Assembly: GCA_051294905.1 (NCBI GenBank)
Contig: CM119371.1
Coordinates: 41,170,001-41,234,000 of the forward strand
Direction: 5' to 3'
Length of the DNA: 64,000 nucleotides
DNA from: Botryllus schlosseri
Lineage: Eukaryota
Both the position numbers and the translations under genes were made by a program. This document shows, in pieces, positions 21,272 to 64,000 of this stretch. The notes under the pieces were generated by a model. That model did not search any database. It saw nothing but the letters and a program-made list of their open reading frames with translations, and was not told where the DNA came from. The first letter of the stretch is position 1. The number at the start of each line of letters is the position of its first letter.

Positions 21272-23234
21272 TCAATCAGTCTTACCAGCCAAATGAATCA
21301 TCATGTGCCTTTTCAAGTCACCCTTCTGGGTAAATTTCTTGCCACAAATATTGCATTCATAGTTTCTTATGCCAGCATGAGATTCCATATGGTGTGTAAG
21401 GGAACTGCCATAGGCAAGTTTCTTACCACAGAGTTCACAATTGCGGTTTTTGACGCCAGTATGTACAGCCATATGCATCTTCAAGTATGATTTCAATTTA
21501 AATTTATCATGACAAATGTCACATGTAAAATCTTTAACAGAGCTATGGAGTTTTATATGAGTATTAAGATGAACCTTTTGAGTAAATTCCTTCCCGCAAA
21601 TCTCGCATGCATAGTTTTTGACATTTGCATGTACAATATTCATATGGTGCTTAACGGATTTTTTCTGCATCAATTCCTTCCCACAGATATCACACTTATA
21701 ATATTTGGGCCTATCGGCAGCATGCACATGCATATGGTTCTTCAAGCCCGACTTCAGAGGAAACTTTTTCTCACAGATATCACATTTGTAATTTTCTGTG
21801 TCAGTAGGTCTATGTCAGGGCTGGCCAACCTTTTCAGCCAAAGGGCCACATTTGATTGACGAACTAATGCGCGGGCCACCAGCCGCGCGAAGCGCGAAAT
21901 TTTTTTGAAGTTCATAGGTCAATAATATTGAAGCTTGACTATCTTGCGGGCCTGATGTATTTCGCTGGGCTAAATTTGCTAGGACTGGGCTACGTGGTGC
22001 CTGGACATATCGATATCGAAAGCTGCGACCAACATGCGCCAATTGGTTGGTTGGTTTTGAGGTATTTATGGTGTTTGACGACTACTATGGTCATTTACAC
22101 CAGATCGATATTCTTTATTTATATTCCGTAACTGCCGACTTTCAGCACGGCCCACTTCCAGGCTTTTTGTAAAACACCGCTTACGCGGATGAGGTGGCCA
22201 GGAGTCGCCTAGAAAAACCTCCAACACTTGGATATAGGAAATGCCTGAATCATTTTATGCCTAGGTTTCATAGTCGACGGTCTTACTGCGAGCGCAAACG
22301 TAAGGTCGTATATGTTGGACGACACTTTGTCTCGTAATCGCGAATATAGTTAGACTCAATCTGATACATTAGGAGTTCTTTCAGCTTCACAAAGGGGCAA
22401 CAATATCAAAAACAAGAAATCAAGTGACACCATGTTGCGCGAAGCTTGTCCAAAAATTTTACATCTGATAAACCCATCCCAAATCATTCTGCTTTATTGT
22501 AGTGTACGAATATCTACCAATATGTGACTGGCTGATGGATCTGCCAAAGCGCCGGAACTGATATTTTAGTCATCACATCTCAAGTGTCAGACACTAATCA
22601 AATTTTTGTTTGGCCTTGCAAGTTTACAATCTGTGCAATACATTTTGGTGATATTAGAAACTTCTGAAATTACCTCGCGGGCCACTCAAAACGTTCTCGC
22701 GGGCCACATGTGGCCCGCGGGCCACGGGTTGGCCGGCCCTGGTCTATGTTGAAGCATGTGTGTCTTGAAACAGTATTTCCTTGAAAACTCCATCCCACAA
22801 ACTTCGCACTGAAGATCTTTGATGCCGGAATGTACAATATCCATATGCCTCCGCAAGCTTGGCTTATGAGCATATTCGTTTCCGCAAACATCACATTTAT
22901 GATGTATGGCGCGAACATGAGTTTTCATGTGAGTGACGACGCCCTTGCGAGTAAACTTCTTTCCACAAATCTCACATCCATGATTTCGGATAGTAGCAGC
23001 AGCATGATTCGCTTCATGTTCCTTCAAGACCCATTCTCGTTTAAAGCCTTTCCCACAAGTACCACATTTATGTGTTTTTCGCCCCGTATGGCAAATCATG
23101 TGAATATCGCGGTTACCCTTTTGCGTGAAAGTCTTCCCACAAATTTCGCATTCATGATTTTTGACACCATAATGAATATTCATATGGTGCTTGATGGAGT
23201 TCGTCACTAATTCTTTGCCACATATCTCGCACAT
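21272..23234 (-). pseudogene. C2H2 zinc-finger gene copy 1 (12 fingers), interrupted between fingers 6 and 7 by a MITE; as it stands encodes a truncated 182-aa, 6-finger ORF
   Basis: ORFs 22686-23234 and 21272-21745; removing 21816-22741 plus one TSD restores ...HMLQHRPTDTENYKC..., as in the paralog at 62967-63995. Confidence 0.9.
21816..22741. mobile_element. hAT-type MITE (926 bp) inserted in ZNF copy 1; contains a SINE fragment ~22044-22245
   Basis: TIRs as in 8605-9321; perfect TSD GTCTATGT (21808-21815, 22742-22749); single GTCTATGT at the paralogous site near 63503. Confidence 0.97.
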
Positions 23235-23717
23235 TTCGTTATAACTTCGAACAATAGTAAGTTACCAAATTATTGGTATTCAGTCTGTCGGTACTGGTGT
23301 TTCTAAAATATAGGATCAGAAACAGTGTAAAGCAGGGAAAATTACTGTATTATGAATGCGAAGCATTGAGTATCACCCAGTTTACAAGTCGAGTCAATAT
23401 TCACTGGAGCCGAGTTTAATCCATTTTCCATAATTCTGGAAAGAACTCAAGTCGAGTACCATAATTACAATCCTGCCATGACGGCAATTGAAACAAATCT
23501 TACATAAAACCATACATGCAGCAATTGCCAGTTGAGCTCCCCACAGGGCCATAATCCAAAAGCACACACTATATTAGAGATTAGCCTTATTTAGGTTTAC
23601 CGGGTTTTGATATCCGGAAGTGAGGAACCTTTTCAAAAAATCTGAAAGCTGGTGATTTTGGAAACTCTTTTTTACCCGTAGCAGTATTGCGTTGACTTAA
23701 AAAGGTCACCGCTCAGG

Positions 23718-25007
23718 AGGGTGTCTTTGATTTGTACATGTCGCCAATGTCACCAATGTCGACGTCTATCTATTTTGTCAATGTCACCCATGTCGCCAAT
23801 GTCGACGTCTATCAATTTTGTCAATGTCACCAATGTCGACTTCTATCTATTTTGTCAATGTCACCAATATCGCCAATGTCACCAATGTCGGCAATGTCAC
23901 CAATGTCGGCAATGTCACCAATGTCGCCAATGCCACCAATGTCGGCTATGTCACCAATGCCGACAATGCCAACATTGCCGACGATGCCGAAACTAGGATA
24001 CTGTAATGACTCGAGTAAGGATTTTTGGTGACTCGACTTGAATCAATTTTGGTATTGACTTGACCTGCACTCGGCTACTCAAGCACTTCGACGTTTATTC
24101 AATTCAACAGGCCTAATAATGTAAATCATATCATTGGAGTTATAAATAATTTGCGTTTGTGGCAAATCTTCAGGTCTGGTCGAAATCGAAAATAATCGCA
24201 ATGTCTGTTTTGCATGCGTAGGCCTCCTCTATCTTGCAGGTGGTCTGTCTGTACCAGATGAGTCCGTAAGTTATCCCATGCGGTCTGGAGTCATGCGCAA
24301 TGACTCAAGTACAGTACAACGAGCCTACTTTTTGCCAGCGTACCTCACGTCCAGTCGTGTATTTTCATTGCGAATCTTACAGTGGAATGTATAAAGACTT
24401 CGACGTTTATTCAATTCAACAGGCCTAATAATGTAAATAATATGATTAGTTATATTATAATAACATTGATAATGACATTTATTCAATTCAACATAGGCCT
24501 AATAATGTAAATAATATGATTAGTTATATGATAATAACATTGATAATGACATTTATTCAATTCAACGTAGGCCTAATAATGTGAATAATATGATTAGTTA
24601 TATGATAATAACATTGATAATGACATTTATTCAATTCAACGTAGGATTAATAATGTAAATAATATGATTAGTTATAAATAATTTGCGTTTGTGGCCATGC
24701 AATCTTCAGGTCTTCCCGTCAAGAATCGCGTAGTATGTAGCGAGATAGTCGAAGTACTTGAGTAGCTGAGTGCAGGTCAAGTCAATACCAAGATTGATTC
24801 AAGTCGTGTCGAGTCACCAAAAATCCTTACTCGAGTCATTACAGTATCCTAGTTTCGGCCCCCGAGCGGCATCGTCGGCAATGTCGGCATTGTCGGCATT
24901 GGTGACATAGCCGACATTGGTGACATTGCCGACGTTGGCGACATTGACAAAATAGATAGACGTCGACATCGGCGACATTGACGACATGTACAAATCAAAG
25001 ACACCCC
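23718..25007. mobile_element. Foldback-type element with long modular inverted arms and internal tandem repeats
   Basis: Ends GGGTGTCTTTGATTTGTACATGTC / GACATGTACAAATCAAAGACACCC; TSD CGCTCAGG (8-9 bp); 9-bp (ATGTCRCCA)n arrays in both arms. Confidence 0.85.
24406..24675. repeat. 72-74-bp tandem repeat, about 3.6 units
   Basis: Units beginning TTTATTCAATTCAAC at 24406, 24478, 24552, 24626. Confidence 0.9.
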
Positions 25008-25232
25008 CGCTCAGGCTCTATTCCTGAATCACCCGCGATAATATGTGTGGACTAAAAGAAAAATATGTCATCACTTGGACAGAACTCTGATGCTCGCTGC
25101 ATCGGGATCGAGTTTTTGATCGTTTCTTGATGCTTTTTCTAGTAAAAGAGGACAAATTTCTAAAAATGAGGACATTTAAAGGCGTCCTCCGAGGACACTT
25201 TCAATCAGGGATGTCTTGAAATTAGATATGCC

Positions 25233-28362: not shown

Positions 28363-28711
28363 GATCACGGTGAACATTGTTCGATATATGCCCTATTCTA
28401 CTGCCCTTAACCGACGAGTATCGACTCAACGGGCAATCATCACTCTTTAGCATGCAAACTCGAGCATTGTCAGCTCTCCTGTATAGTACCATGACCAATC
28501 AACAGTTGAATTCCTTGTCGTGGCTATTTGGTCTCCAACCCCAGAAAAACTCTCAACCATTTGTAGACGGATAACCAAACGGCGTACCGAGCAGGCCGCA
28601 AGAGAGGTGGAACTTGCAATGCAATACTATAAGCCGCGGGACAGGTAGAAGTTCTAATACTAAAGCGCGGACCAAACCTAAACGATGGAAAGCAGAACAG
28701 TGGATTGTGGA

Positions 28712-30184
28712 TTGGGTTGTTCAGATTTGAAAAATTGTCAGGAAATTTCGATGCTTGTGACCCAAATGATGGTTTAGTACATAAAAACACTTATATGATC
28801 AATTTTGGTCATCTTCGTCGTGATCTTCTATCCCCGAAAGGCCCCCAAAGATGCACGGGGCAATTCTCCTTACTGCTTGATCTGTAGTGTTGACCATGTC
28901 ACCGGTTTATAGCTTTGGTGACGTTATCATTCGAAAACGGCCATGCAGAGACGAGATATTGCAATAAAATAGATATGTTTTCAAAATGTTATTTAAATGC
29001 AGTCCTGTAAAGGCCACTTGCATCTCAGTTTTGCTCAGCAAAACCTGTCTGTCATGCTCATGGGAATCATGTATTGGCTGCACCATAGACATCGGTTTGA
29101 TTTGGATCGTACATTGAAGAAGCGCCGTTGGGTTGTAATTCGTGAACGAATACTGATATTCCCAACTAGTTTTCAGCCATAAGGTATTATTCAAAGGTAT
29201 GTAATGTCAGTAATACTCTTCTCAACTTCAAATCATCTGTAAAATACCGAGTTATCTTATTTTATGGTAGACGGCAATTTAGTTGAAGAAAAATGCCTGA
29301 AACAATGCATCAACACAATGTTCAGTGCTTGCCATATAGGTATTATTGTCATATTCCATACGTTGGCAACCTCTTCAACAGTTTGAAGGACACAGTCCTG
29401 CGTTGTGGTAGTTCCGGAGCAATTTTCTTTCAGATATGGCGGATATAGTAGAACCTCATCTAGAGTCGGTTACTTGGAGTGACTAATGCACTCAGATGAA
29501 TATCCGACCGAATAGTGACCAGAATATCAGACCAAATAGTGGGCAGACCTGAATATTGTTTATGGTTGATCCGCAAAACCCATATCCGCTTTGTTTCAGA
29601 CATTCTTCTGCAACTAAATTGCAGTCTACCATAAAATAAGATAACTCGGTATTTTACAGATGATTTGAAGTTTAGAAAAGTATTACTGACATTACATACC
29701 TTTGAATAATATCTTATGGCTGAAAACTAGCTGGGAATATCAGTATTTGTTCACGAATTGCAACCCAACGGCGCTTCTCCAATGTTCGATCGAAATCAAA
29801 CCGATGTCTATGGTGCAACCAATACATGATTCCCATGAGCATGATAGACAGGTTGTACAGAGTGAAATCGATAAGCATGTGGCCTCAATAGGACTGCATT
29901 CAAGTACAATTTTGAAAACATGACTTTTTTATTGCAATATATTATCTCTATACGGCCGTTTTCAACTGATAACGTCACAAAAGCTATAAACCGGTGTCGT
30001 GGTCAACATTACATATCCAGCAGTAAGGAGAATTGCCCCATGGATCTTTGGGGGGTTTTCGGGGATTGAAGATCATGATGAAGATGACCAAAATTGCTCA
30101 TAAAAGTGTTTTTATGTACTAAACCGTCATTTTGGTCACAAGCATTGAAGTTTCCTGACAATTTTTCAAATCTGAACAACCCTA
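28712..30184. mobile_element. Foldback element with ~600-bp inverted arms
   Basis: 28712-29310 is the reverse complement of ~29590-30184 (mirrored ORFs 28907-29194 and 29702-29923); flanked by TGTGGA direct repeat. Confidence 0.9.
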
Positions 30185-31258
30185 TGTGGAACTTGTATAC
30201 TAAACAACGGAACTATGAACAGACCGGACCAAGACGCAAAAGAGCGGACCGAGAAACATACGGAACTCGCAATATTAAACGGCGAAATTGGGGACAACCA
30301 CATAATGCACAGTGAAAACGTCGGCCTGTGTAGCGACTACAAGGCTAATACGTAACGATAGATTACTCGTGCACAAAATGAACTGTGCATCAACACTTAA
30401 CAGAGTTTAAAAGAACAATACTAGTCAGCCGTCTAGTTTACCGGACCTCAACCTGACATATCGATCTCGCCTTCAGAGACATGCCACCTCTGTTTGTCGC
30501 CTGTCCGCTTATATCGATCTTCTTCTGCTTTTCATTCAGTGTGGATGCCTCCTTTTTTACATCATCTAGGCCAGGTGGGTGTCTGATTTGGAAGACTACT
30601 CCAAAAGTCGTTTCGGCAACTTCCTATCTTTCATTGTATCGCAGTCTTTGTGGTATATTGAAATGATGAAATTGTTACGTTTTTCGTGTGTATGAATTCA
30701 AATCACATGTATCAGCATCGGTATCAGTTTATTATTATTTTCATCATTTTCAAACATCAAATTTAATGAGTGTGTATCTTGTGTGTTTCCTCCAGGGACC
30801 TCTTGAGACTAGGTTAGGGTTCCGGGGAATACCGTTATGAACCATTGTACAAAGGAAATTGCACTCATTTTGGCGCCGTGGATATACTCAGCTATCGCAG
30901 CTCCTGCAGCTATCGCATCTATCTATAGATAACTAACCTACGGATAGATGGGCAGCACGAGAGTCACGGTCGAGTGATGCGACAACGGCAGATTTGTTGT
31001 CGCTTCATAGCATGAAACGGGAGCGTAATTGCTAATCCCATAGATGACGACCCGAGCGCTCAAATTAAATAAAGTTGATATTATTTGAAAGCTACAGTCG
31101 CGCTGATTCTGATTATATACATTAAATTTTCATCAAGGCAATGGAACCACCCCGAAATAGCCTTCAAAATATGAAAATCCGCATTGTTCTAAAACAATTG
31201 CAACGGCGCAGCACAATGGCCATAACTACGGTCCGTTCGTGGTTGCGATTGTTTAGAA

Positions 31259-31974
31259 CAGTGGTTCCCAACGTGGGCGATATCGCCCCCCAGGGGGCGA
31301 TTAGGCGTTCTATGGGGGCGAAAATAACGAATAGGGCGATAGGGGGGCGAAAACGGACGAAGGGGGCGAAAACAACGAAGGGGGCGATGGCACATTAAAA
31401 CGGCTATATGGAGTCAGGACCGAAGATCTTTAATTATTATTTAGGGATTTTACTTTTCCAACACACCACACTCAGCTCTACCGGTAAATCTGATTACGTG
31501 AGCAGAGAGAGGATAAAAATTGATAGCAATATATATGCAATTTCCGACTATATTGACTGATTTAAACATGAATTATATAATTTGTCGCGCTTCGCGCGTT
31601 TAGGCGCAATACGGTAGCTCACCAAACAATACATGAAATAGGGTATATAGCTGATATGTAGCGATGTAGCGACAAAAAGCCCACTGGCTGAAGGGGGTCT
31701 GGGGTTTGATTTATCCCCCTATGGCGGTCCAAGACCAACGTTTGGGTGGGGGCGACGAAGTACTGTTACTGTCCTGATTCGAGTCAAGTTGGAGAAATGA
31801 CTCACAAAAATTGAGCTGTAAAAGTGTAATTTCGAGGTCGAGCCGAAAAGTTGACCTTATTTTTTATCAGTCCCAGTTTGTATACCCATTTTTCGGTTCC
31901 CAATATTTGGGGGGCGATGATCGGTTTGGAGCTTCAAAAGGGGGCGATGAGTCGAAAAAGGTTGGGAACCACTG
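31259..31974. mobile_element. hAT-type MITE with GGGGGCGA repeats
   Basis: TIRs CAGTGGTTCCCAAC / GTTGGGAACCACTG; perfect TSD GTTTAGAA. Confidence 0.95.
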
Positions 31975-34803: not shown

Positions 34804-35239
34804 ATACCTTGTAAAATGAGACCGTAGCATTTGGCATTTCGTGTGGCAATTGACTTTTGTGTGGAAAATTGTGTTCGTTTTAGAACTTATCCGAAACTTT
34901 TATTCCGCCATAGATTGTATATGATAAAACGATATCGGAATTGATCCTAGGAGAATTCCAAAGCAACTCACCACAAAGGAGGATTTAAAGAAGTTTGATG
35001 GAAAATTGAATGAAAGCAAAAGCAAGAGATGTGGTATGTTGAATCTGTTTTGGTATTTTTAAATAGGCCTACTTTGTTGTGCCGATAGCAGACGGTATAT
35101 ATAAACGTAAGATGTGGAAGCTATCAAGGTGTTTTTAGAAATTCAGTCAGTCAAAGTGGACGATCGTATTGCTTGGATTATATTTAGGCTTATTTTAGCA
35201 TCTTTAAATGCAACTCTAAACGTGGACGGTCATGAACAG

Positions 35240-35903
35240 TAGGGCTCTTCAAAAATGACTTTTTTTCTCAAATCGTACTGGCTACTTGATAAAATTGTTA
35301 GGTTACCTAATTTAAGCCTACAAACAAAATATGGTTCATCCAGCCAGTATCCGCTTTGCTACAAGAGAAGAAAGTTCCTATTTATTATATAAAAATGAAT
35401 AATAAAAAATTTGAAGATTTTCTGTTCACCCCATGAAAGTGTTAGGCTGTCTATAGAAACGATGCTCACCAAATTTGGTTCAATTCCAACCAGTGGAAGC
35501 GGAGTTATTGCTGTCGAAAAATTTGGATTTTAATAAAATAGTACTTACGGTGAGCACAACTTTAATAAGTAAACAAAGAATCGGTCACCGTAAATACTAT
35601 TTTATTCAAATCCAAATTTTTCGACGGCTATATCTCCGCTTCCACTGGTTGGAATTGAACCAAATTTGGTGAGCATCGTTTCTATAGACAGCCTAACACT
35701 TTCATGGGGTGAACAGAAAATTTTCAAATTTTTATTACCTATTCATTTTTATGTAATAAATAGAAACTTTCTTCTCCTGTAGCAAAGCGGTTACTGGCTG
35801 GAATTGAACCAAATTTTGTGTTTAGGCTTAAATTAGGTAACCTAACAATTTTATCAAGTAGCCAGAACGATTTGAGAAAAAAAGTCATATTTTAAGAGCC
35901 CTA
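35240..35903. mobile_element. Near-perfect palindromic foldback element; half copy at 44362-44716
   Basis: Arms 35240-35553 and 35585-35903, 31-bp spacer; ends TAGGGCTCTT / AAGAGCCCTA. Confidence 0.9.
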
Positions 35904-38900
35904 ATGTCCATGTCAGGGAAACGTTTTAGGGTAGGCCTACTCATATGTCTCGCAGCGTTCTCTACATAATTGTCAATTGCGATACAAACTGTTTGCTTGT
36001 ATTGGTAAAGCCATCCAACTTCGAATTGTAAAATGTTGGGAGTCTTGATATCAAATTTTTGAAAGGTGCACTTTGAGAAGATTTTGGAATCTGTCAAATT
36101 ATACAAAAATTTAGCAAATTCTTTGACATATTTCATCTATTTGGGACTCGATCAACGTAAAAGAATTAGTAATCATTTTATACAATATATTGTATTTGTA
36201 GTTGAAGTATAGTAATAATTCTTATGGTTACCGCACTTGTAACGATTCACGGCCATAACTGGAATAATTAGAATGATGTAACTTTCAAATTGTCATGCAT
36301 TTTGCAACAACATTGTTCTCAATTTTCAAGGTGCTGACCATTCGAGGAAGAATCACCCACCGGGAATTCACGATCCGTAAACGCGGCCAACTGTTTCTCT
36401 CCTCAAGCGGAAGCGACAGAGAAGAGGAACGAAGAGAAAAAAGGAGCAGAAATAGCAAGAGTGTGACAAGTCGCGTCCGTTCGCTTTAATGCGTATTTCC
36501 ATCCGCGAAGTAGTAGGTGGGAAAACTAATGGGCGTTTGGTTAGCGCTTATATAAGGTTGACTCCAGCGCTGTATTTGCTAAATGTTGCTATGAAATAGG
36601 GGTGGTGTCATTCGGTATCAATATTGACTATTGAAAGACCATTTGTTAGTGGTCATGGATTTGTTCGGCCAGTATGCAGTAATTTCTGATGGTCACTTCC
36701 TGGGCTTCTGTTCTCTAACCCCTCATGATTGTTATTCTGCTTCTAGTAAGACTGTCGATTCTAATGTTTATCGTATCATTTGTCGGAGGTTTCGCTCGCT
36801 TTATTTACAACGTTTTGCTCTCTGCTAGGTCAATTACTGGCTGAGTATCACTACAGCCTAAGAAACTGCACTAATTCTCATTTTAATGTCTTGCTGGTTA
36901 TCTTGCTGTCAATTCTAATAATTTATTAATGTATATACCAGTGCCGCCACTCAAATGTTTTGTTCTCTGTACACAATATTATTAGGTCTTCAGCTTTCCA
37001 TGCAGAGTATCATTACACTTTCTAGACTTGAGCATATATCTCTCCAACTAGCTGCCAAATAACTGATTCATTTGGATTGTTGAATTGATCATTTTGGACA
37101 GAATGTGAAGAAATTTTAGTCAAGAATTCTTTTTGTGTTAGTGGCTGTTTTCAAAGAGTGCTGAAGTAGTCATCGTTGATCTTGATAATCAAGTAGAAGT
37201 GACGATTGAAGTCAGTTCTCTAGTCATATAATATTAAAAAATATAATAATAAAACTTGAAAACTTGAGTGGAAATAGTTCAGAATCGAATCCATTTTAGT
37301 AAGTATGGGCGAAAAAAATGTAGGAGTCATTCGTTAGTCGCTACCTCTGCCATTTTCGCAGTACGAATGTCTTAGCTATCAATCATCATTTTCATTTTAT
37401 TTCTGCAGGGTGTTGAAAAGAAAAGGCCGCATGCTGGTTATTTAACTGGCTCATCAGAAGATGAAACCTGATGATAAGGACTGTTTTCACTTTCTTTCTG
37501 AAGACATTCGTTCGTTTGTTCGTTTTATTTTTTACAACGGCATTATTGCCAATTCGGTTGAAATTAAATTATCACAAATGTGATTAATATGTAGTAAATA
37601 ATGTGGTGTGTGTACGCAGCCGTGATCAGGTTAAGCCCATAGTGGTAGAAAACAGGTTATTATATCAGGATCTTCTTCTTCTAACGTAGGATCTACATTC
37701 TACTCACCATGTTTAAAGGCTGTAGCATCTGCATAATATTTACATTATTGAAGGACATGGAAAAGACGTTGAATCGAGTCGACACAAAATCCCCCTTTCT
37801 ACGACCTGCCAAGATCTAATATCTACTACATCGGCTCGACTTTTCTACATCTTTGGTCTGTACTGTGTTTGCTGGGATATGATAGGCCTATTTGGACGAC
37901 GTGGACGCGCGTGTGTTGTACTTGTGCGCTTTTGATTCCGAGGTAAAAAAGTCATTGAAATATTTGGGGCAACGACCGCAGTGGAACTGATACATAAACT
38001 TGGCGATTTCTAGTTTTCGCATATCTTCTATGTTTAGGACACCGAATCTCTTCAGCAGCGACTTGTTGGATGGACCAACAGGCTTCTATGGGGCTCTAGC
38101 TATGATACGGAGTACCTTATGTTATAGTTTTTGCAGTGGCTCGAGTGCAGTTTTATTGCCAGCCCCCCAACAAAGGATGCCATATTGTAACTTCGATTGG
38201 ATTAGGGATTTAAAGAGTATCAGAAGAACCCAGGCTGGCATGAAGCGTCCAAGGCTGTAGAACAGGCCGCAAGTCGGTGATAATTTAGGGTAGAGAGAGA
38301 CTGAATATGACTCTTCCAGGACATGTCCGAGTCCAATAAAACCCCGAGATATTTGTCATTATCTGTGTTGGAAACGGGCTGACCAGCCACGTTAACGGTT
38401 AGGTTATTTTTTTAATTTCTCATTAATATATACCTATTACCCAAGGAACAGCTCTTGGTTTCAAATAGGTTGTTGGAAATTGAGATATAGTCTTCAGGGG
38501 TAGTGATGAATATAAGTTGAGCTTAACAAGGTGTGTTGAGTCAAAAAAGTATGGGAACAATCGGTTTACCGTATTCCAAACTTAAGCATATCCATGAACA
38601 AATGCAGTGTACTCTTGAGATGGCGATTTCCCCACCTTACAGTCAAAAAACCAAAATGAAATGGAATGGAAAATTTTCTTTGTAACCAGCTTTCATATGA
38701 TACCCTACTCGCTGGAATATACTTATAAGGTTTTGCTCAATTCGCATTCTAATTTGTGTAACGCTTGACCGATTTCAGACCATCGACCAAGTTTCGCCTC
38801 AATTTAACCTTTAACACTACACCGCATGGCATTCAATACCACATGAGAATATAGACCAATATACTAGCTACTCAGAAAACCCAGTGCCAAATCTCAACTG

Positions 38901-39139: not shown

Positions 39140-41260
39140 CCTTTGTGATTTGGGGGGGGAGGGAGGTTCTGATGCTCTGTCGATTTTAACTATTAAATTT
39201 CGAAATCAGTGCGACGATATCATTCGATTAATGAGGTGATGAAATTTTCTGAATAAACTAATATCAGCAGTTATATATTCTGAGCTGTTTTTGAATTAAT
39301 GACGCTATCCTAGGTGTTGCTTGGCGTTTCTGTGCCTTACTTCTCCCTCAACACTATATTTTGGAACAATAAATGTAAGTATGTGGTTTTGGGTGTATTA
39401 ATATGTTAACTATTTAGTCATTCATGAATGTCGTGATGTTATAATCATTTACGGTTTCACAATTGCCTTTTAGTCATCCTGACTGCAGGTGGGGCACTGT
39501 GTTGTTTGACCGAACATATGAATCACGGACTGCTACTATTCACCGGCATAAGATACATATAAGTCAAAAACAACTCACGTATCACATTTATTATTAATTT
39601 ATCTTGATCAAAACATCACGAAACTGCAATACAATGACAAGTTGAGGCATGCACATTGCACACTTAATGAAAGTAATAGAAGAGAGCATAAAAAGGATAA
39701 GGGTGAAAATAAGGTGGCGCGTGTCGAGGTCGATATATTTAGACATTGGGTCTGATAATATTGAATTTCTCCATCGCAAAAGTAGCTGAAAGTACAGTGC
39801 CTCATGTAAAGAAGCCTTTGCATCAGCAGATAAGCCTAATGGATCTTCTTTCCACAAAATGTATCGCAGCGACCATATTTCATGCCTGAAATAGCTTGTC
39901 AAATTGCTATTCGGTCGACCCAACGCCTTATCGAACCCCGTCCAAGCATAGTCATAAATACGCACGTCGGTTTGAAATAGATTCCATTGCTCTCATATAG
40001 TAGGCTTTCCATATGTCCTCGTTTATAAGGATTTGTCCTCTTTTTGACTTTTGGACGCCCTTTTGTCCTCATTTTTGAAAATTTAGGTCAGATTTAGAGC
40101 AAATTGGGAGTGATATGCCGCAAATTAGCACAGAAGTGAAGCTCCGGCGGGTATTTCGGAGTGAAAAACGATGATTTCAGCTCGGAGCGAAAAGATGACC
40201 TTTTTTTTAGTTAACCGATCACAAAGTGGGAAAAATTAACCGGTTTTTGAGAATTCTACTCCGGTTTTGCAAGTTGCAAATTTCTGAAAAAGTATCCTCT
40301 TTTCAGATTTCCAAAATATGGTAAGCCGATCATATAGACACATTTAACCTAGATATAAAATACTTCGGAGCAATGAAATTCAATGCCTAAGAACGTCTAC
40401 AGCAGATAATGTAAGTCTCAACCGTCTTTAGATTTTGGAAAAGCTAAAAACTGAGCAAAATGGTAAGCAAGTAATCTCGCGTTTAGGACTGCTCGTTGTA
40501 ACCAAACCCACGGATCAGTGCCCTATTGTCATTATTGGTATGTAAACCCGTCTCTCCAAACATATTAATTTATACCCGACGCGTACATGAAAAGGAGAAT
40601 ACATAATAGGCTATAAATCCACATTCAACAGGTATTTATTTCCTGATAGGATGTGACAACGACCAAGTCACGTGTTCATAAAATCTTGACAGGTTTCATA
40701 AATGTCATTTCACAAATGAATGATACAATTCGATATGCTACAATTTTCATCATTTCAATACACTGCAAGACTGCGATACAGTGAAAGATAGAAAGGCGTC
40801 GAAACAACTCTGAGTAGTCTTTGAAATCAGACACCCACGTGGCCTAGACGATGTAAAAAGGAGGCATGCACACTGAATGACAAGTAAAAACAAGATAATA
40901 GAAAAAAACAGGTCACAAAAAAAGGTGGCATGTATCGAAAGGCGAGATCGATATGTCAGGTCGTGGACCGGTAGACTAGAGGATTAAAAGTATTTATTCA
41001 GCAGAAATTGTCAGTCTTTCAACTTGAATTCTCCATAATGCTACCATAAATAAAGCGACATACTTGACTAAATGTTTTGAAAATAAGACAGGTGGTTGGC
41101 CAGATGGGAGACTAATTTCGAGAACAGTAGCTTCCCTTCCTTCCATTACCCACAGATGATTGCTTTGAGTATATTTTTACACAAATCCCCACATCATTCA
41201 GTCATAGTAGCCAAATGAATTTTCATGTGGGTGTTGAAGTTGCTGCTTTGGGTAAATGTC
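39140..41260 (+). repeat. Segmental duplication, direct copy at 60939-63040
   Basis: About 2.1 kb nearly identical (duplicated spurious ORFs 39594-39965 / 61386-61757); covers 3' flank and last finger of ZNF copies 2 and 3. Confidence 0.95.
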
Positions 41261-42282
41261 TTGCCACAAATATTGCATTCATAGTTTCTTATGCCAGCAT
41301 GAGATTCCATATGGCGTGTAAGGGAACTGCCATGGGCAAGTTTCTTACCACAGAGTTCACAATTGCGATTTTTGACGCCAGTATGTACAGCCATATGCAT
41401 CTTCAAGTATGATTTCAATTTAAATTTATCATGACAAATGTCACATGTAAAATCTTTAACAGAGCTATGGAGTTTTATATGAGTATTAAGATGAACCTTC
41501 TGAGTGAACTTCTTCCCGCAAATATCGCATCTATAGTTCTTGGCACCTGTATGTATATCCATATGATGCTTCATGGATTTGATGTGCATCAATTCTTTCC
41601 CACAGATATCACACTTATGATATTTAGGTCTATCGTCGGCATGCGCATGTACAAGCATATGGTTGGTCAATGCAGACTTTAGAGAATACATTTTGTCACA
41701 GACATCGCATTTGTAATTCTTTATATTGGTATGGATGAGCATATGTGTCTTTAAACAGTATTTCCGAGCAAACTCCATTCCACAGATTTTGCACTGGAGA
41801 TCTTTGACGCCAATATGTACAGCAGCTATATGCCTCCACAAGCTGTTCTTGGAATATTCTTTTCCACAAACATCGCATTCGTGTTTGAGGCGAACATGAG
41901 ATTTTATGTGCATGAGGACGCCCATTTTGCGAGCGAAATTTTTCCCACAAATTTCACATTCATGATTTCTAATAGCAACACTAGCATGATTCGCTTCATG
42001 TTTCTTCAAGCCCCATTTTCGTTTAAAGCCTTTCCCACAAGTAACACATTTATGCAATTTTCGGCCAGTATGGCAAATCATGTGAATATCGCGGTTACCA
42101 TTTTGCGTGAATGTTTTCCCACAAATTTCGCATTCGTAATTCTTGACACCATAATGTATATCTATATGGTGCTTGATGGAGTTCTTGAATAATTCTTTTC
42201 CACATACATCACACGTTTCCTTTCGATGAAATTCTTCTCCCAAAACACCCCATGGCTGATTTGTTACACCGCCATTATCCAT
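41194..42282 (-). CDS. C2H2 zinc-finger protein copy 2, 362 aa, 12 fingers, no effector domain seen
   Basis: Uninterrupted ORF with 12 CxxC...HxxxH units and TGVKN/AGIRN-type linkers; acceptor-like CCAG near 42366; AATAAA at 40635-40640. Confidence 0.9.
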   Translation of the reverse strand: MDNGGVTNQPWGVLGEEFHRKETCDVCGKELFKNSIKHHIDIHYGVKNYECEICGKTFTQNGNRDIHMICHTGRKLHKCVTCGKGFKRKWGLKKHEANHASVAIRNHECEICGKNFARKMGVLMHIKSHVRLKHECDVCGKEYSKNSLWRHIAAVHIGVKDLQCKICGMEFARKYCLKTHMLIHTNIKNYKCDVCDKMYSLKSALTNHMLVHAHADDRPKYHKCDICGKELMHIKSMKHHMDIHTGAKNYRCDICGKKFTQKVHLNTHIKLHSSVKDFTCDICHDKFKLKSYLKMHMAVHTGVKNRNCELCGKKLAHGSSLTRHMESHAGIRNYECNICGKTFTQSSNFNTHMKIHLATMTE

Positions 42283-45096
42283 AAGTTTAGTCCAGGAGAT
42301 ATAACTCTTGCCAACAAATATTAAACTTCCGAGTATATTCTTCCTCAGAAACTAGCAAGCAAAACCTGGATCACACAGAAGAGAAGAACACATTTAAGAA
42401 AGGGCATTTCATTTTCTACCAAATATTTCAGAGGAAACGAATACTGTACAGTAGTGGTTCCCAGACTTTTCACATTTTGGCACACTCGAGAAATGATATA
42501 AGACTCTCTCGGTTATGGGTCTGTTTGCGTTAATACGAATTGACATACACGACTGAAACGAGATTGCATTGTTGACAAACCTGGCACCATTTCGGTCGGC
42601 AGCCAAAGATTCAAAGTTTATGCAATTTTCGTGGGAACATTGCTTCAAACATAGATAGCCAAGTAAATCTATATTCTCAACTTTGAATATACCTGTGGTT
42701 CCTACACTTTTTCAGCTTGTGGCACCCTAGAAAAATTATACCACGTTCGAAAGATATATACAACAGAAGGAAGGTTGCTTTAAAAGAATTTATTGCTATA
42801 CCCGCTAATGCAGTGGCGGGTAACATATAGGCCCGCGGGGCGGATCTGGCATGCGACTGGAATTTGAGTGGCCCGTAGACACTTTCCGGTGGTCCGCGTA
42901 TCCATACATGTGCGCATAGTCGCCTACTTTTATTTTTACATGGGGTGGCGAGATTGAAAAGGGAAGGGGTTTAAAAATTGTTCAAACTTACCAAGTTAAC
43001 ATCAATTTATTACTGTTAAATACATGGGTAAATGCCCATAATACATGAATAGGATTTACGCGTATAAGTACGCATAAGCTTGCCAGCGAGTCTAGCGGTC
43101 AATTAGCGATTCTTCGATCTTGCTTCAATATCAAACATTTACCAACACGCACGCCTGCACGCGAAAAATTGAATACGCAACCTCGCTGTCTACGAACTAT
43201 TTCACAAATTAATGTGATTGAAGTCTGCTGTGGAATCTGCTCTGTGATGGCACCGATTTCAGGTGATTCAGGCCTGACGTATCTTCTGATAACTCGGCCT
43301 TAAGCCTTAACACACATCTTCTGATGTTCTAGTGATAGCACTAATCAATTACGTCCGTACGTTAGAGTTGTTCAATGTTCATGGCCCATTGCGCAGATTC
43401 AAAGTTATTCAATTTCACGCTTTCAGTCTTGCTGGAGCAACAATCGCATAAGTAGAGATAGCATGCAAATCATGCGAGGCCTGTGGCAGTTACTACAATT
43501 TAAGGCCAGCGGTGTTATCGCATGCGCCAGTCCTACTGTGGTAACGATATCCGGCCTAGCCTGCACGCGGACGCGCAAATCAAAGACGTGACGATGGTGA
43601 AAATCAGATGTCAATGACCCATTTCACATACAAATGATTCTCGCTAATTTGCAGTACGCAGCATCGATAACGCGAATTAGTGGATTGGCATTTCAAAAGG
43701 AAGCTATTACTAGTTTTAAATGAGAAACATCCTGACTCCGAACGTAGGTATGGTTTTAATACCGGCACGCGCTGGTTAATATCAGCCCGGGGCCTACAGC
43801 CAACGTAGGCCCCGATCAGTCAGTCGAATTTGATCGTGAAACGGTACTATTTTAATTACACAGGCGTTATTGCAACAAGGGCAATATGGGCGCATGCCGC
43901 GACCATATCAATAGAAATACAAATTCCAGTAGTTTGAAATCCGCGATGTGGTTGCGCTCGATACAGTCCGTCCATCAATGAGGTCCGTTGGAACATGGAA
44001 GGCTCCCGTTCAAACTAATCGAATGAATTCAGAATTTGGGCCACAGATAGTCTTGTGTTGCATCAATATTTGACAACGTGATTCAACGCCGTACATTGCA
44101 CAATGCGCAGTATCAATAACAAATCAAACACTGACAACTAACATCGCGGGAATATGAGTATATAAGCAGACAAGAATTTGTAGTCTACAGATGTTAGCGA
44201 ACGAGAAAGCGCGCTGCGCGCATCTAATCAGTAATTCCTCAACTTGCGTACGGCGCATTGGGGATCCGAATCTGACAACGCGACAATTGTTTTACTCATT
44301 ATAACGACGTTTAAGCTGCATTGCTGCTTTTCCCGATAAAAGCTGGTTTGTCAGAGTATTGTACGGTGAGCACAACTATAATAAAAAAACAAAGAATTGG
44401 TCACCGTAAATACTATTTTATTCAAATCCAAGTTTTACGACGGCAATAACTCCGCTTCCACTGGTTGGAATTGAACCAAATTTGGTGAGCATCGTTTCTA
44501 TAGACAGCCTAACACTTTCATGGGGTGAACAGGAAATTTTCAAATTTTATAATATTTATTTTTATATGATAAATAAAAACTTTATTCTCCTGTAACAAAG
44601 CGGTTACCGGCTGGAATTGAACCAAATTTTGTGTGTAGGCTTAAATTAGGTAACCCAACAGTTTGATTTAGTAGCCAGTACGATTTGAGAAAAAAAGTCA
44701 TTTGTGAAGAGCCCTAATGCGCACTTTGGGCAGAAATGACTTTGAAGTCGCAGGCATACACAAACACACCGTCCTATTTCGCGCTCCAGTTAAAGCGACT
44801 ATCACTATCAAGAATTATTTTGTGAACGAATATGCGCGCAAATATAATTTAATGTGAACGTGAATTCGCTCGTCTGGTCGAGAGAGAAGATGGTGTTTCT
44901 CTGCGCAGGCCGCAGACTCGTCGAAATCGACCATAAACGAGGTCGCTTCGATTGTCTCATTATCAATACTAATCACGGACCACAATCTATTGGGGCGTTT
45001 TAGCACGAGTTCGTCGTCTCTATTCACGCGTGCGTATTGGTTAATCGTAAATAGTTGACATTTGTGCGATAACACGGACTCGCTTATTAACATCGA

Positions 45097-50186: not shown

Positions 50187-52963
50187 CAGACATGGGGTGA
50201 TTACTTCGTGAATGTAATCGATTGCGATTACGATTACTTCTGAATGACGCGATTACGATTACGATTACGATTACAGCAAAATCAGGAAGTAGTCGATTAC
50301 GATTACGATTACATTGTAAAAGTAATCACGATTACTCACGATTACATTTATTTTGCATCTTAGAAGTTACATTGGAAGACAATATATGGATTGCGCTGAT
50401 TGCTTTAAAAAAAGACGCGATAATTGCTTGTTATGTCATAAAGTACCCATTGCCTATTTTATAGAGGACGATTTATCGCACCCAACGATTTGCATTCTTG
50501 CCAGGTCCACAACAGTCGCACCCCAAATTTCCTAATAAGGTGAGGAGCGATCTCGAAGGGGACTCAAAAGTATTTCGTAAACCAACACAAATTATAGACT
50601 ATTTGCGAGAGATTTCATGAACTTGAAAATTATCTACGAGCATCGCGATTTAAATGTCTCAACTAGATAGCTTGATTTTGAAATACATACGCCAAGAAAA
50701 AAAGCATGTATAATTTGTAGTAATAGGCATTTAGGTGCCAGTTAATACCGCGCCACGTCACACCAAAACACATCTGCAGTTTCGGCCAACATGCGAATCC
50801 ACGAAGTGTGCTACTAATGAAAGACATAGGCCGAAACTTGGGGTATGTGTCCATTGTCAATAATAGTAATAGTAATAGGAATAGACTAATAGTCCGGTCC
50901 TTCCAATCTGAGCCCACAATGCAAATGCCACCCGGGCACCCGCAGAGCATTAAAGACATGGCAATTAGTGTGTGCGTCTCACGCACGTATTTTTTTTAGT
51001 CTGCTACGTTTGGGCCACAACAATATCTTTTGATTATACAACAGACCGGAGGTCACCAATTAACAACACACCCCAAAGTAACTAATTATTACAAGATACA
51101 AGATTTTATAATTATGAATTACGTGCCTCCAGCTCTTCAGGTAAGTCTGACCATAGACGGGTGACCGAATACGGGCCATAACCAACAGCATATCGAAGAA
51201 ATTGGGCGAAGAATTACGCAAACTATTGAACAACACGCGATAAGCCTAAAGGCGACGCAAATAACCGTTTTACACGCGATCGCAAAATTTAGTTAATATC
51301 CTGAAATATGACTACATGCATATCTCAAATTTCCCGCGTAGCGTATATATGCAATGCATATTGTCTAGTCATTCCATATACATGTACCAATATGAATATT
51401 TATTTTTACGCCTTTTTTCCTTTTCCATATGCAAATAGAACTGCCATTTCGTGTGTTTTACTACCCCCATACCCCTCCCCGAAAATATCACATCCCATAT
51501 ACCCCAACAGCGGCTCCACCAACACCACACCCTACCAAAACCACCCAATAGGAGATATCGTCATCCTGGAAATGAGAAAATTACCAGGGTCACCATAAAC
51601 TAAAATGTAAGGTAGGTAATTGGGAACATAAATATTGAAAATATCATAATTACGATGATTGGCAAATTTCTAAAAATGGACAAACCCAGAACATGGAAAA
51701 TTATTGAGATATAAATATGACTGAAAATATGAGTTCAATTTTCGTCACGCTCCAATAACACCCTAAAGACTATAAACCCAAGGACCATTTAAATATAAAA
51801 AGAATGGTGCAGGCGTATAAGACTTGAGATCTTAAGTTCAGCCATCCAGGATTCACATAGGCACGCACTATATTTCTTCTTTTCTTACTTTATTATGCTT
51901 TATCATGCACTTTGAAATAAAATCACTAAAGAGAGACCATCGGGGGCTGAGAGAGGATTAAAAATGAATAGTAATATAATGAAATTACCAATATTATTGA
52001 CGAAATTAAATCTTCAACTTGAAAATTTACTACCCTATGGGGACCCAAGAGCAACGTTTGGAGTGGAGGACGATTTGCTGTGTTTGTCCTGCCACGCTAA
52101 CATTGTATATAAGCCGATGGCTATGGCGGCAGGCCCAAATGTTGAGTAAAGAATTGTGAAATAACGATTAGCGCCCGTTTCAAGTAGAATCATATGAGAA
52201 TAAGAGAAAGTAAACATAAAATTCTGCCTACAACTTAATACAGATAATGTAATGCAAGCGGCCATTACGAGAACCAGCTCGGTTATGATATATATCAGCA
52301 GCTGTTGATTTTAATGCTTCGTCGTGGAAACCGTAATGTTTTATTTGACGAGTAGGCTACAAAATTTCAAACCTTTGTCCGGTGTACGTTCGTACTTCGT
52401 CCTACACAGGCCTACTGCTCGCCAAGCAGCAACGGTCAAACCGCGTTTAACTAAGCATAACCAAACATCAATACAAAAGTTACTATTTCAAACTAGGCAG
52501 AGTGGTGGTTAATTATCTTGCTGCGAGGTAGTGGCGTCTGGAATGTATTGATAACCTGATATGCAGTACGGTGAGTGTTCTTACAATCACACAAATGTAC
52601 ATCGAATATCTATTCACTATGTGTGGATAGCTGGATACTTCTTACGCAATGACGAGCAAAGCTAATGGTCCCTTTCTGACGTAATAATGAGCATTGGCAT
52701 TTGAAAATCTGACGTTTGTGCTATCACTAACTGGTATAATACCTTTTCCTTGTTCACGAATGTTCAGTTTATCTCATAGTCCTGTACAAATAAAAAGTAA
52801 TCGTTCTTTTGCAAAGAAATCGATTAAATATGGGAAGTAGTCGATTACGATTACGATTACTTCGGAATTTTCTCGAATGTAATCGATTGCGATTACGATT
52901 ACTTGAAAATGCTGTAATCGTCGTAATCGATTACGATTACTAATCGCGATTACCCCATGTCTG
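50187..52963. mobile_element. 2.8-kb hAT-type non-autonomous element with (GATTAC)n subterminal arrays
   Basis: TIRs CAGACATGGGGT / ACCCCATGTCTG; perfect TSD CTACTAAG. Confidence 0.95.
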
Positions 52964-53731: not shown

Positions 53732-53879
53732 CTCATCCGCTGAAGCGGTGTCTTACCAGAGGTGGGCCGTGCTATAAGTCGTCACTCGTCAGTTACGGAA
53801 TAAAAATGAAGAATATCGGCCTGGTGTAAATGACCTTAGTAATCGACAATCACCATGAATACCTCAAAACAAACAAAGA
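53732..53879 (+). mobile_element. 5'-truncated SINE copy
   Basis: 14-bp TSD ACACTTATCACTTC (53718-53731, 53880-53893); AAAC tail. Confidence 0.85.
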
Positions 53880-58412: not shown

Positions 58413-58647
58413 GTTATAACCGAGCGCATATCGCAGACCATCCCTTTTTATATATAGAGACTCATGTACGTCGTATAACCTACTGTTTGAATTACTACCC
58501 TTTCGTCCAATACATATGGAAAAGGCAATTGTCGTCTATTGAACTACCAGTCAAGAGCTACACGCAGAACATTCGTATTCGCTACTGCCAGTTAAGTATA
58601 TTGGAAGCCGCTATCCGTAACAAAGGCTACGGACTTGCTGTAAATAC

Positions 58648-60699: not shown

Positions 60700-62966
60700 G
60701 TATATATCATCGCAGAATATCGGACAGCCCCTTTCACCGCAAACTGAATACATTTGCTCTGCACTACATGTTGGTCGGTGCAGCTATACGATTCGGACCA
60801 CGCGATCGGATTGCGAAGTCGATAGCGCATTTTGTCACCTGCGATTGTCAGATAGTGATGATGAAGCGAAGTAATCTGTGCCTCACCTGATTAGTGTTCC
60901 GCCGCGCTGACATTGTACGTACTGGCTAACTTCACATTCCTTTGTGATTTGGGGGAGGGAGGTTCTGATGCTCTGTCGATATTAACTATTAAATTTCGAA
61001 ACCAGTGCGACGATATCATTCGATTAATGAGGTGATGAAATTTTCTGAATAAACTAATATCAGCAGTTATATATTCTGAGCTGTTTTTGAATTAATGACG
61101 CTATCCTAGGTGTTGCTTGGCTTTTCTGTGGCTCACTTCTCCCTCAACACTATATTTTGGAACAATAAAAGTATGTGGTTTTGGGTGTATTAAAATGTTA
61201 ACTATTTAGTCATTCATGAATGTCGCGATGTTACAATCATTGACGGTTTCATAATTGCCTTTTAGTCATCCTGACTGCAGGTGGGGCACTGTGTTGTTTG
61301 ACCGAACATATGGATCACGGACTGCTACCATTCATCGGCATAAGATACATATAAGTCAAGAACAACTCACGTATCACATTTATTATTAATTTATCTTGAT
61401 CAAAACATTACGAAACTGCAATACAATGAAAAGTTGAGGCATGCACATTGCACACTTAATGAAAGTAATAGAAGAGAGCATAAAAAGGATAAGGGTGAAA
61501 ATGAGGTGGCGCGTGTCGAGGTCGATATATTTAGACATTGGGTCTGATAATATTGAATTTCTCCATCGCAAAAGTAGCTGAAAGTACAGTGCCTCATGTA
61601 AAGAAGCCTTTGCATCAGCAGATAAGCCTAATGGATCTTCTTTCCACAAAATGTATCGCAGCGACCTTATTTCATGCCTGAAATAGCTTGTCAAATTGCT
61701 ATTCGGTCGACCCAACGCCTTATCGAACCCCGTCCAAGCATAGTCATAAATACGCACGTCGGTTTGAAATAGATTCCATTGCTCTCATATAGTAGGCTTT
61801 CCATACGTCCTCGTTTATAAGGATTTGTCCTCTTTTTGACTTTTGGACGCCCTTTTGTCCTCTTTTTTGAAAATTTAGGTCAGATTTAGAGCAAATTGCG
61901 AGTGATATGCCGCAAATTAGCACAGAAGTGAAGCTCCGGCGGGTATTTCGGAGTGAAAAACGATGATTTCAGCTCGGAGCGAAAAGATGACCTTTTTTTT
62001 AGTTAACCGATCACAAAGTGGGAAAAATTAACCGGTTTTTGAGAATTCTACTCCGGTTTTGCAAGTTGCTAATTTCTGAAAAAGTATCCTCTTTTCAGAT
62101 TTCCAAAATATGGTAAGGCGATCATATAGACACATTTAACCTAGATATAAAATACTTCGGAGCAATGAAATTCAATGCATAAGAACGTCTACAGCAGATA
62201 ATGTAAGTCTCAATCGTCTACAGATTTTTGAAAAACTAAAAACTGAGCAGAATGCTAAGCAAGTAATCTCGCGTTTAGGACTGCTCGTTGTAACCAAACC
62301 CACGGATCAGTGCCCTATTGCCATTATTGGTATGTAAACCCGTCTCTCCAAACATATTAATTTGTATCCGACGCGTACATGAAAAGGAGAATACATAATA
62401 GGCTATAAATCAACACTAAACAGGTATTTATTTCCTGATGGGATGTGACAACGACCAAGTCACGTGTTCATAAAATCTAGACAGGTTTCATAAATGTCAT
62501 TTCACAAATGAATGATACAATTCATGCTACAATTTTCATCATTTTAATGCACAAGACTGCGATACAATGAAAGATAGGAAGGCGTCGAAACGACTTGGAG
62601 TAGTCTTTGAAATCAGACACCCACCTGGCCTAGACGATGTAAAAAGGAGGCATGCACACTGAATGACAAGTAAAAAAAAGATAATAGAAAAGGACAGGTC
62701 ACAAAAAAGGTGGCGTGTATCGAAAGGTGAGATCGATGTCAGGTCGTGGACCTGTATACTAGAGGATTAAGAAGTAGTTATTCAGTAGAAATTGTCAGTA
62801 TTTCAACTTGAATTCTCCATAAATAAAGCGTCATACTTGACTGAATGTTTCGAAAATAAGACAGGTGGTTGGCCAGACGGGAGACTAATTTCCAGAACAG
62901 TAGCTTCCCTTCCTTCCATTACCCACAGATGATTGCTTTGAGCATATTTTTACACAAATCCCCATA

Positions 62967-63995
62967 TCATTGAGTCATATTAGCCAAATGAATTTTCATG
63001 TGGGTGTTGAAGTTACTGCTTTGGGTAAATGTCTTGCCACAAATATAGCATTCATAGTTTTTTATGCCAGCATGCGATTTCATATGGCTTCCAAGGGAAC
63101 TGCTATAGGCAAATTTCTTCCCACAGACTTCACAATTGTAGTTTTTTGTGCCTCTATGTACAGTCATATGCACCTTCAAGTGCGATTTCAATTTAAATTT
63201 ACCATGACAAATGTCACACGTAAAATCTTTAACAGAGCTATGGATTTTCATATGAGTTTCAAGATGAACCTTTTGAGTAAATTCCTTTGCGCAAATCTCG
63301 CATGCATGGTTTTTTACATTTGCATGTACAATATCCATATGGTGCTTAACGGATTTTTTCTGCATCAATTCCTTCCCACAGATATCACACTTATAATATT
63401 TATGCCCATCGGCAGCATGCACACGCATATGGTGCTTCAAGCCAGACTTTAGAGGAAACTTTTTCTCACAGATGCCACATTTGTAATTTTCTGTGTCAGT
63501 AGGTCTATGTTGAAGCATGTGTGTCTTTAGACAGTATTTCCGAGAAAACTCCATCCCACAAACTTCGCACTGAAGATCTTTGATGCCAGAATGTACAATA
63601 TCCATATGCCTCCGCAAGCTTGGCTTATGAGCATATTCGTTTCCGCAAACATCACATTTATGATGTATGGCGCGAACATGAGTTTTCATGTGAGTGACGA
63701 CGCCCTCACGAGTGAATTTCTTTCCACAAATCTCACATTCATGATTTCGGATAGTAACAACAGCATGATTCGCTTCATGTCTCTTCAAGTCCAATCCTCG
63801 TTTAAAGCCTTTCCCACAAATACCACATTTATGTGTTTTACGCCCCGTATGGCAAATCATGTGAATATCGCGGTTACCCTTTTGCGTGAAAGTCTTCCCA
63901 CAAATTTCGCATTCATGATTTTTCACACCATAATGCATATTCATATGGTGCTTGATGGAGTTCGTCACTAATTCTTTGCCACATATCTCGCACAT
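62967..63995 (-). CDS. C2H2 zinc-finger protein copy 3, 342 aa, 12 fingers; 5' context cut by window end
   Basis: Uninterrupted ORF with 12 fingers; near-identical to copy 1 over fingers 1-9; AATAAA at 62427-62432. Confidence 0.92.
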   Translation of the reverse strand: MCEICGKELVTNSIKHHMNMHYGVKNHECEICGKTFTQKGNRDIHMICHTGRKTHKCGICGKGFKRGLDLKRHEANHAVVTIRNHECEICGKKFTREGVVTHMKTHVRAIHHKCDVCGNEYAHKPSLRRHMDIVHSGIKDLQCEVCGMEFSRKYCLKTHMLQHRPTDTENYKCGICEKKFPLKSGLKHHMRVHAADGHKYYKCDICGKELMQKKSVKHHMDIVHANVKNHACEICAKEFTQKVHLETHMKIHSSVKDFTCDICHGKFKLKSHLKVHMTVHRGTKNYNCEVCGKKFAYSSSLGSHMKSHAGIKNYECYICGKTFTQSSNFNTHMKIHLANMTQ

Positions 63996-64000
63996 TTCGT

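What the first reader, a model, noticed from the sequence alone, without database searches (positions are those of the whole stretch)
21272..63995. Three 12-finger ZNF paralogs are patchworks of one another
Seen: copy 1 matches copy 3 over fingers 1 to mid-9, then switches to near-identity with copy 2 (HLNTHIKLH...KSYLKMHMAVHTGVKNRNCELCGKKLA...HAGIRNYECNICGK), then has a private last helix. Copy 3 differs from both in fingers 9-11 yet shares the last helix (TFTQSSNFNTH) and ~2 kb of 3' flank with copy 2. No single tree fits. Inference: finger blocks are being shuffled by gene conversion or unequal crossover, generating new DNA-binding combinations in an effector-less ZNF cluster sitting in transposon-saturated DNA.
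Basis: partly seen in the sequence, partly recalled or inferred. Interest (0 to 1): 0.75.

Follow-up and report, generated by a model that had tools for sequence, protein, structure and literature searches.

The report
Recombined zinc-finger genes in sea squirt
Three neighbouring zinc-finger genes of a sea squirt have swapped matching blocks of fingers with one another, a clear example of the ordinary recombination known between duplicated genes, which here gives each copy a different predicted DNA-reading code.

Summary
The mosaic is real. Three minus-strand 12-finger C2H2 paralogs in an ascidian split into three blocks, each with a different closest pair. Fingers 1-9a: c1=c3 (35/711 differences, against 124-131 to c2). 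Fingers 9b-12a: c1=c2 (3/241). Last helix plus 2 kb of flank: c2=c3 (3/65; 64/2027). Permutations never matched the clustering (0/5000, 0/300), and silent sites rule out one tree with rate shifts. Contigs from the best-matching DNA run and two other samples hold the same blocks, so an assembly chimera is unlikely. Corrections: exchanges are in register (finger n for finger n), not reshuffling. c1's 'private' end is an old homologue of the c2/c3 end. c1 is cut after finger 6 by a hAT-type insertion. 'Effector-less' is untested. Best reading: ordinary ectopic conversion and unequal crossover at several times between two old parental genes, leaving c1 and c2 as complementary Lepore/anti-Lepore-like hybrids. 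Donor direction cannot be fixed without an outgroup. All three fingerprint arrays differ; function is not shown. The scan had not noted this locus; it noted paralog conversion in an unrelated bacterial zinc-finger family. Known process, well-supported new example.

The parts
21272..23237 (-). Copy 1 (c1): 12-finger C2H2 array, interrupted after finger 6; the reading frame stops inside the insertion at 22686-22688
21816..22741 (.). 926-bp hAT-type non-autonomous element with terminal inverted repeats and an 8-bp target-site duplication (21808-21815 / 22742-22749); carries a nested ~197-bp piece absent from its relative at 8605-9321
   Evidence: hAT label from TIR and 8-bp TSD pattern is recalled knowledge
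21578..23237 (-). Block A of c1 (fingers 1-9a), closest to c3 (35/711)
21337..21577 (-). Block B of c1 (fingers 9b-12a), closest to c2 (3/241), including a 131-bp identical run 21447-21577
20957..21336 (-). Block C of c1: finger-12 helix, relic 13th finger and 3' UTR, an old homologue of the c2/c3 end
41194..42282 (-). Copy 2 (c2): intact 362-aa ORF from ATG 42282, 23 residues then 12 fingers
41500..42219 (-). Block A of c2, the old divergent type (124-131/711; silent divergence about 0.37)
41259..41499 (-). Block B of c2, shared with c1; the only two amino-acid differences lie at positions -1 and +6 of finger 11
39140..41258 (-). Block C and 2-kb 3' flank of c2, shared with c3 (3/65; 64/2027)
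62967..63998 (-). Copy 3 (c3): open 12-finger array, 5' end beyond the window
60939..62966 (-). 3' flank of c3 shared with c2

Best explanation
A small tandem cluster of lineage-specific C2H2 genes descends from two old parental genes (about 37% apart at silent sites). Misaligned paralogs paired in register and exchanged sequence several times by unequal crossover and/or gene conversion. SHOWN: every block exists in two recent copies and one divergent copy; c1 has a c3-type 5' part and an old-type 3' end, c2 has an old-type 5' part and a c3-type 3' end, and the 241-bp block between the two junctions is almost identical in c1 and c2. INFERRED: c1 and c2 are complementary Lepore-like and anti-Lepore-like hybrids, and the middle block was homogenised last by conversion, confined to the stretch where both were of the same type. 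INFERRED order: A split c1/c3 (11% silent) is oldest, then the c2/c3 3' end (3%), then block B (about 1-2%). Point mutations at base-contacting residues then separated the arrays further; c1 was later cut by a transposon. The proteins most likely act as sequence-specific DNA binders; targets unknown.
For: Block counts and breakpoints. Silent-site drop c1-c2, p=4e-6. In-register finger identities. Old homology of c1's 3' end. Different ages: A silent 15/136 vs flank 64/2027, p=7e-5, not explained by CpG decay, 2 of 35 differences. Read support: run X1 contigs match c2 with 0 differences at 40944-41150, 41121-41273, 41259-41496, 41467-42097 and 42070-42950; contig ends fall next to the c2/c3 split (41274) and the c1/c2 split (41258); the B contig is deeper (30.8 vs 20-22), as expected for a block shared by two genes. 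X6, another sample, has B-contig ends at the same places, carrying the three c1 alleles plus one more. X5, a third sample, has one contig across the B/C junction with 24 differences to c2 where c1 predicts 23. Precedent for chimeric paralogs by both routes: PMC4041002 (passages).
Against: Three sequences and no outgroup (best database relatives 40%, 43%), so parents and donors are not identifiable. Block B does not fit one depth: amino-acid change c1-c3 matches the old split (19/81 vs 64/236, p=0.56) but silent change is shallower (p=0.02-0.06). The c1 A/B junction itself was not displayed in reads, since only c2 was laid. The contig fork in X1 and X6 is at 41497, 3 bases from where the window's c1 leaves c2 (41500), which is unexplained. 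Contig forks are indirect evidence and only 24 of about 5000 pieces were shown.
Confidence: 0.7

Rival explanations
1. Same process, other polarity: c1 is an unrecombined gene, c3 is its duplicate that took c2's 3' end and flank, and c2 received block B from c1 by conversion; fingers 9-11 then diverged fast between c1 and c3 through relaxed or positive selection.
For: c1-c3 silent divergence is flat across A and B (0.110 vs 0.123; p 0.8-1), so c1 need not switch at finger 9.
Against: Needs a 3.5-fold rise of amino-acid change confined to B (pN 0.034 to 0.118, p=4e-5), which is spread over helix and scaffold alike (0.139-0.179 vs 0.098); c3's own old 3' flank would have to be lost (no homologue found).
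Confidence: 0.2
2. One event: a circular copy of the c3-type gene with its upstream region and 2 kb of 3' flank integrated into the old paralog by homologous recombination, gap repair giving both resulting hybrids the same block B.
For: The order c3, c2, c1 and the complementary structure of c1 and c2 with one shared overlap are exactly what such an integration would leave; the c2-c1 spacer has no long homology to the c3-c2 spacer.
Against: A single event predicts equal ages, but A (15/136 silent) is older than the flank (64/2027, p=7e-5; near flank p=0.007). Sequential crossovers and conversions give the same layout.
Confidence: 0.04
3. Assembly artefact: collapsed or mis-joined paralogs or haplotypes, or polishing that copied c2 bases into c1.
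For: c1-type contigs in X5 and X6 carry a variant at 41380 and X1/X6 fork at 41497, both in or at the edge of the window's 131-bp perfect c1=c2 run, so a few bases of that run could be polishing errors.
Against: Even those contigs differ from c2 at only 4 of 238 bases in B, against 30 for c3; block types of all three copies occur in X5 and X6; X1 tiles c2 without a difference across the A/B boundary.
Confidence: 0.03
4. One tree, no recombination: lineage- and region-specific rate changes mimic a mosaic.
For: Three sequences have no topology to conflict; B shows unusual amino-acid divergence.
Against: Pairwise path length cannot fall from 49/130 to 2/46 silent sites (c1-c2) or from 0.37 silent to 0.032 non-coding (c2-c3) under one tree.
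Confidence: 0.01

Closest known systems
Lepore and anti-Lepore chimeric beta-globin genes (HBD/HBB; PMC4041002, passages read)
   Same: Adjacent paralogs recombine in register; 5' and 3' parts of one gene have different affinities; crossover and conversion leave the same pattern; two-step histories (conversion then crossover) occur.
   Different: Here the product is a modular DNA-binding array, and complementary hybrids would sit side by side on one chromosome, which the passages read do not describe for globins.
Young KRAB-zinc-finger clusters of mouse (PMC12575710 passages; PMC5363842 section 7 and passages)
   Same: Tandem poly-finger genes in repeat-rich DNA, non-allelic recombination, distinct fingerprint arrays (-1, 2, 3, 6), finger-level plasticity, pseudogenised copies.
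   Different: No KRAB domain found; the passages read describe segmental duplication and finger duplication, deletion and mutation, not in-register block exchange between paralogs; host is an ascidian.
Lineage-specific metazoan ZNF families such as cyprinid FiNZ-ZNF (PMC10547256, passages)
   Same: Species-restricted multi-finger family with faster change at base-contacting residues (6/74 vs 12/456 in block A, p=0.03).
   Different: No N-terminal accessory domain identified; no evidence here for transposon targeting or for dN/dS above 1.
PRDM9 zinc-finger array (search listings only; mechanism recalled)
   Same: Recombination alters the finger code.
   Different: PRDM9 fingers are near-identical and exchange out of register within one array; here fingers within a gene are only 42-77% alike and exchange is between genes, in register; no SET domain found.

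Membership tests
Multi-finger C2H2 (Kruppel-type) ZNF genes | Tandem C-x2-C-x12-H-x3/4-H fingers matching zf-C2H2 | tested here: met
   Pfam PF00096 E 6e-51 (c2) and 1e-51 (c3); 12 fingers each with all ligands present, two with an 11-residue core
Multi-finger C2H2 (Kruppel-type) ZNF genes | Sequence-specific DNA binding | not testable with these tools
   Inferred from family; linkers depart from the recalled TGEKP consensus
Interparalog gene conversion / unequal-crossover chimeras | Significant, contiguous tracts with a different closest paralog | tested here: met
Interparalog gene conversion / unequal-crossover chimeras | Signal present at silent or non-coding sites | tested here: met
   (silent codons only: p=0.04)
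Interparalog gene conversion / unequal-crossover chimeras | Chimera exists in raw data, not only in the assembly | tested here: met
   contigs of three samples; indirect for the c2 B/C fork, not displayed for the c1 A/B junction
Lepore / anti-Lepore reciprocal fusion pair | Both unrecombined parents identified and donors polarised | tested here: inconclusive
   No outgroup; block B depth ambiguous
KRAB-ZNF / effector-bearing ZNF (KRAB, SCAN, BTB, ZAD, SET) | N-terminal effector domain in frame | tested here: inconclusive
   No such Pfam hit in the c2 or c3 ORF; 0 hits of 109 N-termini of database relatives against both spacers; but upstream exons unresolved, weak open-phase acceptors exist at 42343 and 23244, no splice joint shown, c3's 5' end is outside the window
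PRDM9-type minisatellite finger array | Near-identical fingers within one array | tested here: not met
   Within-gene finger identity 0.42-0.77

The most novel reading that the evidence does not exclude
In-register exchange of finger blocks between paralogs is an ongoing, still segregating source of new DNA-binding codes in this ascidian ZNF family, coupled to selection at contact residues: c1 and c2 are complementary hybrids kept side by side, the only two amino-acid differences in their shared block hit positions -1 and +6 of finger 11, a third combination of those two sites appears in another sample's contig (X5, depth 4.3), and the finger-3 helix differs in all three copies. This would be an intergenic counterpart of PRDM9-style array turnover in an invertebrate chordate.
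Probability: 0.15. Interest if true: 0.65.

Novelty: new member of a known kind. Interest (0 to 1): 0.38.

Why it matters
How poly-finger genes gain new specificities is usually described as duplication plus point mutation plus finger gain or loss. This locus shows cleanly that whole in-register blocks also move between paralogs, giving arrays that no single parent had, and that trees built on whole ZNF genes mislead. The process is textbook for paralogs in general. My six searches on it (ascidians 29, 54) returned no paper whose listing or passages described this block exchange for ZNF clusters or ascidians, but the library lacks most subscription papers and I recall older KRAB-cluster work discussing conversion. 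It would matter more if population data showed junctions segregating and selected.

Tried and rejected
No whole genome was held, so further paralogs and c3's upstream region could not be read. Protein searches gave only generic finger proteins: at most 40% identity among 120 listed of 562, none among 1524 short candidates, at most 43% among 150 listed; the exact c2 protein is not in the collection. No RNA holder listed. The raw RNA run X23 (6% read) gave depth about 0-1 on the coding part and no splice joint; X5 and X6 are not on record as RNA, so expression is not shown. Joints that skip 240-326 bases in the array had sides under 30 bases and were set aside as cross-mapping between related fingers. 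c1's last helix as a copy of finger 2 or 9: rejected (65-68% vs 80%). CpG decay as cause of the older A age: rejected. Positive selection: not shown, pN at contact residues 0.081 is below block-A pS 0.110. Effector exons in the spacers: none found. PMC10547255 and PMC2865497 term searches found nothing on finger exchange. No structure or complex prediction was run, as it would not bear on the question. Supplements were not consulted.
Full report
Setting. The window is animal DNA. A neighbouring CENP-V/GFA gene (7904-8314) has its best named relatives in Styela clava (77%) and Phallusia mammillata (69%), so the host is an ascidian, most likely near Styela (inference). About 43% of the window matches itself elsewhere, the finger duplications included. 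No whole genome was available.

Anatomy. Three C2H2 arrays lie on the minus strand about 20 kb apart. In transcription order they are c3 (>=63998-62967), c2 (42282-41194) and c1 (23237-21272). Each has 12 fingers with all zinc ligands and a relic 13th finger after the stop. c2 is an intact 362-aa ORF with 23 residues before finger 1. c1 carries a 926-bp element with terminal inverted repeats and an 8-bp target duplication after finger 6, which ends its frame at 22686.

The mosaic. Of 187 informative sites, 111 single out c2, 48 c3 and 28 c1, and they are clustered. The best two breaks lie in finger 9 (c1 21578/21565) and finger 12 (21352/21336); 0 of 5000 and 0 of 300 permutations reached the scores. 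Differences c1-c2 / c1-c3 / c2-c3 are 124/35/131 of 711 in block A, 3/29/30 of 241 in B and 17/17/3 of 65 in C. c2 and c3 share a further 2 kb at 64/2027 mismatches.

It is recombination, not rate variation. With three sequences 'no tree fits' needs neutral sites. Silent divergence c1-c2 is 49/130 in A and 2/46 in B (p=4e-6; this B count includes the boundary codon), and c2-c3 is 48/131 in A against 3.2% in the non-coding flank. On purely synonymous codons alone the A/B shift still holds (p=0.04).

It is probably not an assembly artefact. Reads were laid on c2 only. Run X1 tiles 40944-42950 with contigs showing 0 differences; one (41467-42097) crosses the A/B boundary. Contig ends sit beside the c2/c3 split at 41274 and the c1/c2 split at 41258, and the B contig is deeper (30.8 vs 20-22). 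X1 may be the source sample, so this tests the assembly, not generality. X6 (another sample and study) has the same B-contig ends and the three c1 alleles plus a variant at 41380. X5 (a third) has one contig across the B/C junction with 24 differences where c1 predicts 23. Against: the c1 A/B junction was not displayed, forks are indirect, only 24 pieces were listed, and the fork at 41497 is 3 bases from the window's c1/c2 split at 41500. A c1 allele, a fourth paralog, or polishing of the window's 131-bp perfect run could explain that; none removes the mosaic.

Exchanges are in register: same-position fingers are 73-100% alike, different positions within a gene 42-77%. c1's end is not new: finger 12 is 80% like the c2/c3 finger 12 and its UTR aligns in 65-79% pieces, about the depth of c2's block A. 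So A and C each come in two old types, and c1 (c3-type 5', old 3') and c2 (old 5', c3-type 3') are complementary, overlapping in B. The ages differ: A c1-c3 15/136 silent, flank 3.2%, B 3/241 (p=7e-5 for A vs flank), which argues for several events. Polarity is open. B's amino-acid divergence from c3 matches the old split (p=0.56) while its silent divergence is shallower (p=0.02-0.06) and equals that of A between c1 and c3. No outgroup was found.

Consequences for the code. Residues at -1, 2, 3, 6 differ among all three arrays. Within B the only two c1-c2 amino-acid changes are at -1 and +6 of finger 11; X5's low-depth contig has one but not the other. In A, c1-c3 replacements are enriched at contact positions (6/74 vs 12/456, p=0.03) and five fall in the finger-3 helix (p=0.003 before correction for nine fingers), but pN there stays below pS, so positive selection is not shown. 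'Effector-less' stays open: no effector in the ORFs or spacers, weak in-frame acceptors exist, and no splice joint was seen.

Comparison. Chimeric paralogs from unequal crossover or conversion are well described for globins (PMC4041002, passages). Mouse KRAB-ZNF clusters are recombinogenic and vary in fingerprint arrays (PMC12575710 passages; PMC5363842 section 7 and passages). Fast lineage-specific ZNF families are general in animals (PMC10547256 passages). Searches listed no paper whose title, abstract start or passages read described in-register block exchange in an ascidian ZNF cluster; the library is incomplete. Earlier scan notes had nothing on this locus or sequence.

Verdict. Observation confirmed; mechanism is a known kind; example is clean and supported in more than one sample; function and direction unresolved. 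Interest 0.38.

Noticed in passing
window 31502-31566 and 31709-31776 vs 51946-52010 and 52025-52091: The only homology between the two spacers that is not repeated elsewhere in the window (75-77%, same strand, collinear, 8-10 kb upstream of c1 and c2). On the minus strand it resembles a short exon plus a polypyrimidine acceptor; possibly the genes' 5' exons.
   Followed up: partly
window 21195-21290, 41130-41212, 62903-62985: Relic 13th finger after the stop codon in all three copies, frameshifted in c2 and c3.
   Followed up: yes
window 8605-9321 and 11723-12282: Relatives of the element in c1 (87% and 67%); the 8605 copy has an 8-bp target duplication similar to that in c1, suggesting a target preference.
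   Followed up: partly
window 41472-41739: Summed contig depth in X1 is about 136-150 against about 21 for single copy, so many related finger sequences exist elsewhere in the genome.
   Followed up: no
window 39700-40300 vs 61500-62100: The shared c2/c3 flank is uneven: about 2 mismatches per 200 bp here against 8-12 near the gene, hinting at a younger tract inside the flank.
   Followed up: no
window 4480-6117 and 7904-8314: Neighbouring host genes: a lysine methyltransferase (PF10294) in at least two exons and a CENP-V/GFA gene.
   Followed up: partly
window 28711-30185, 14247-19769, 35237-35906: Long inverted repeats (598-bp arms at 89%; 1.6-kb at 79%; a fold-back element related to 44362-44719) and several tandem arrays (74-bp x3.7, 9-bp, 198-bp).
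   Followed up: no
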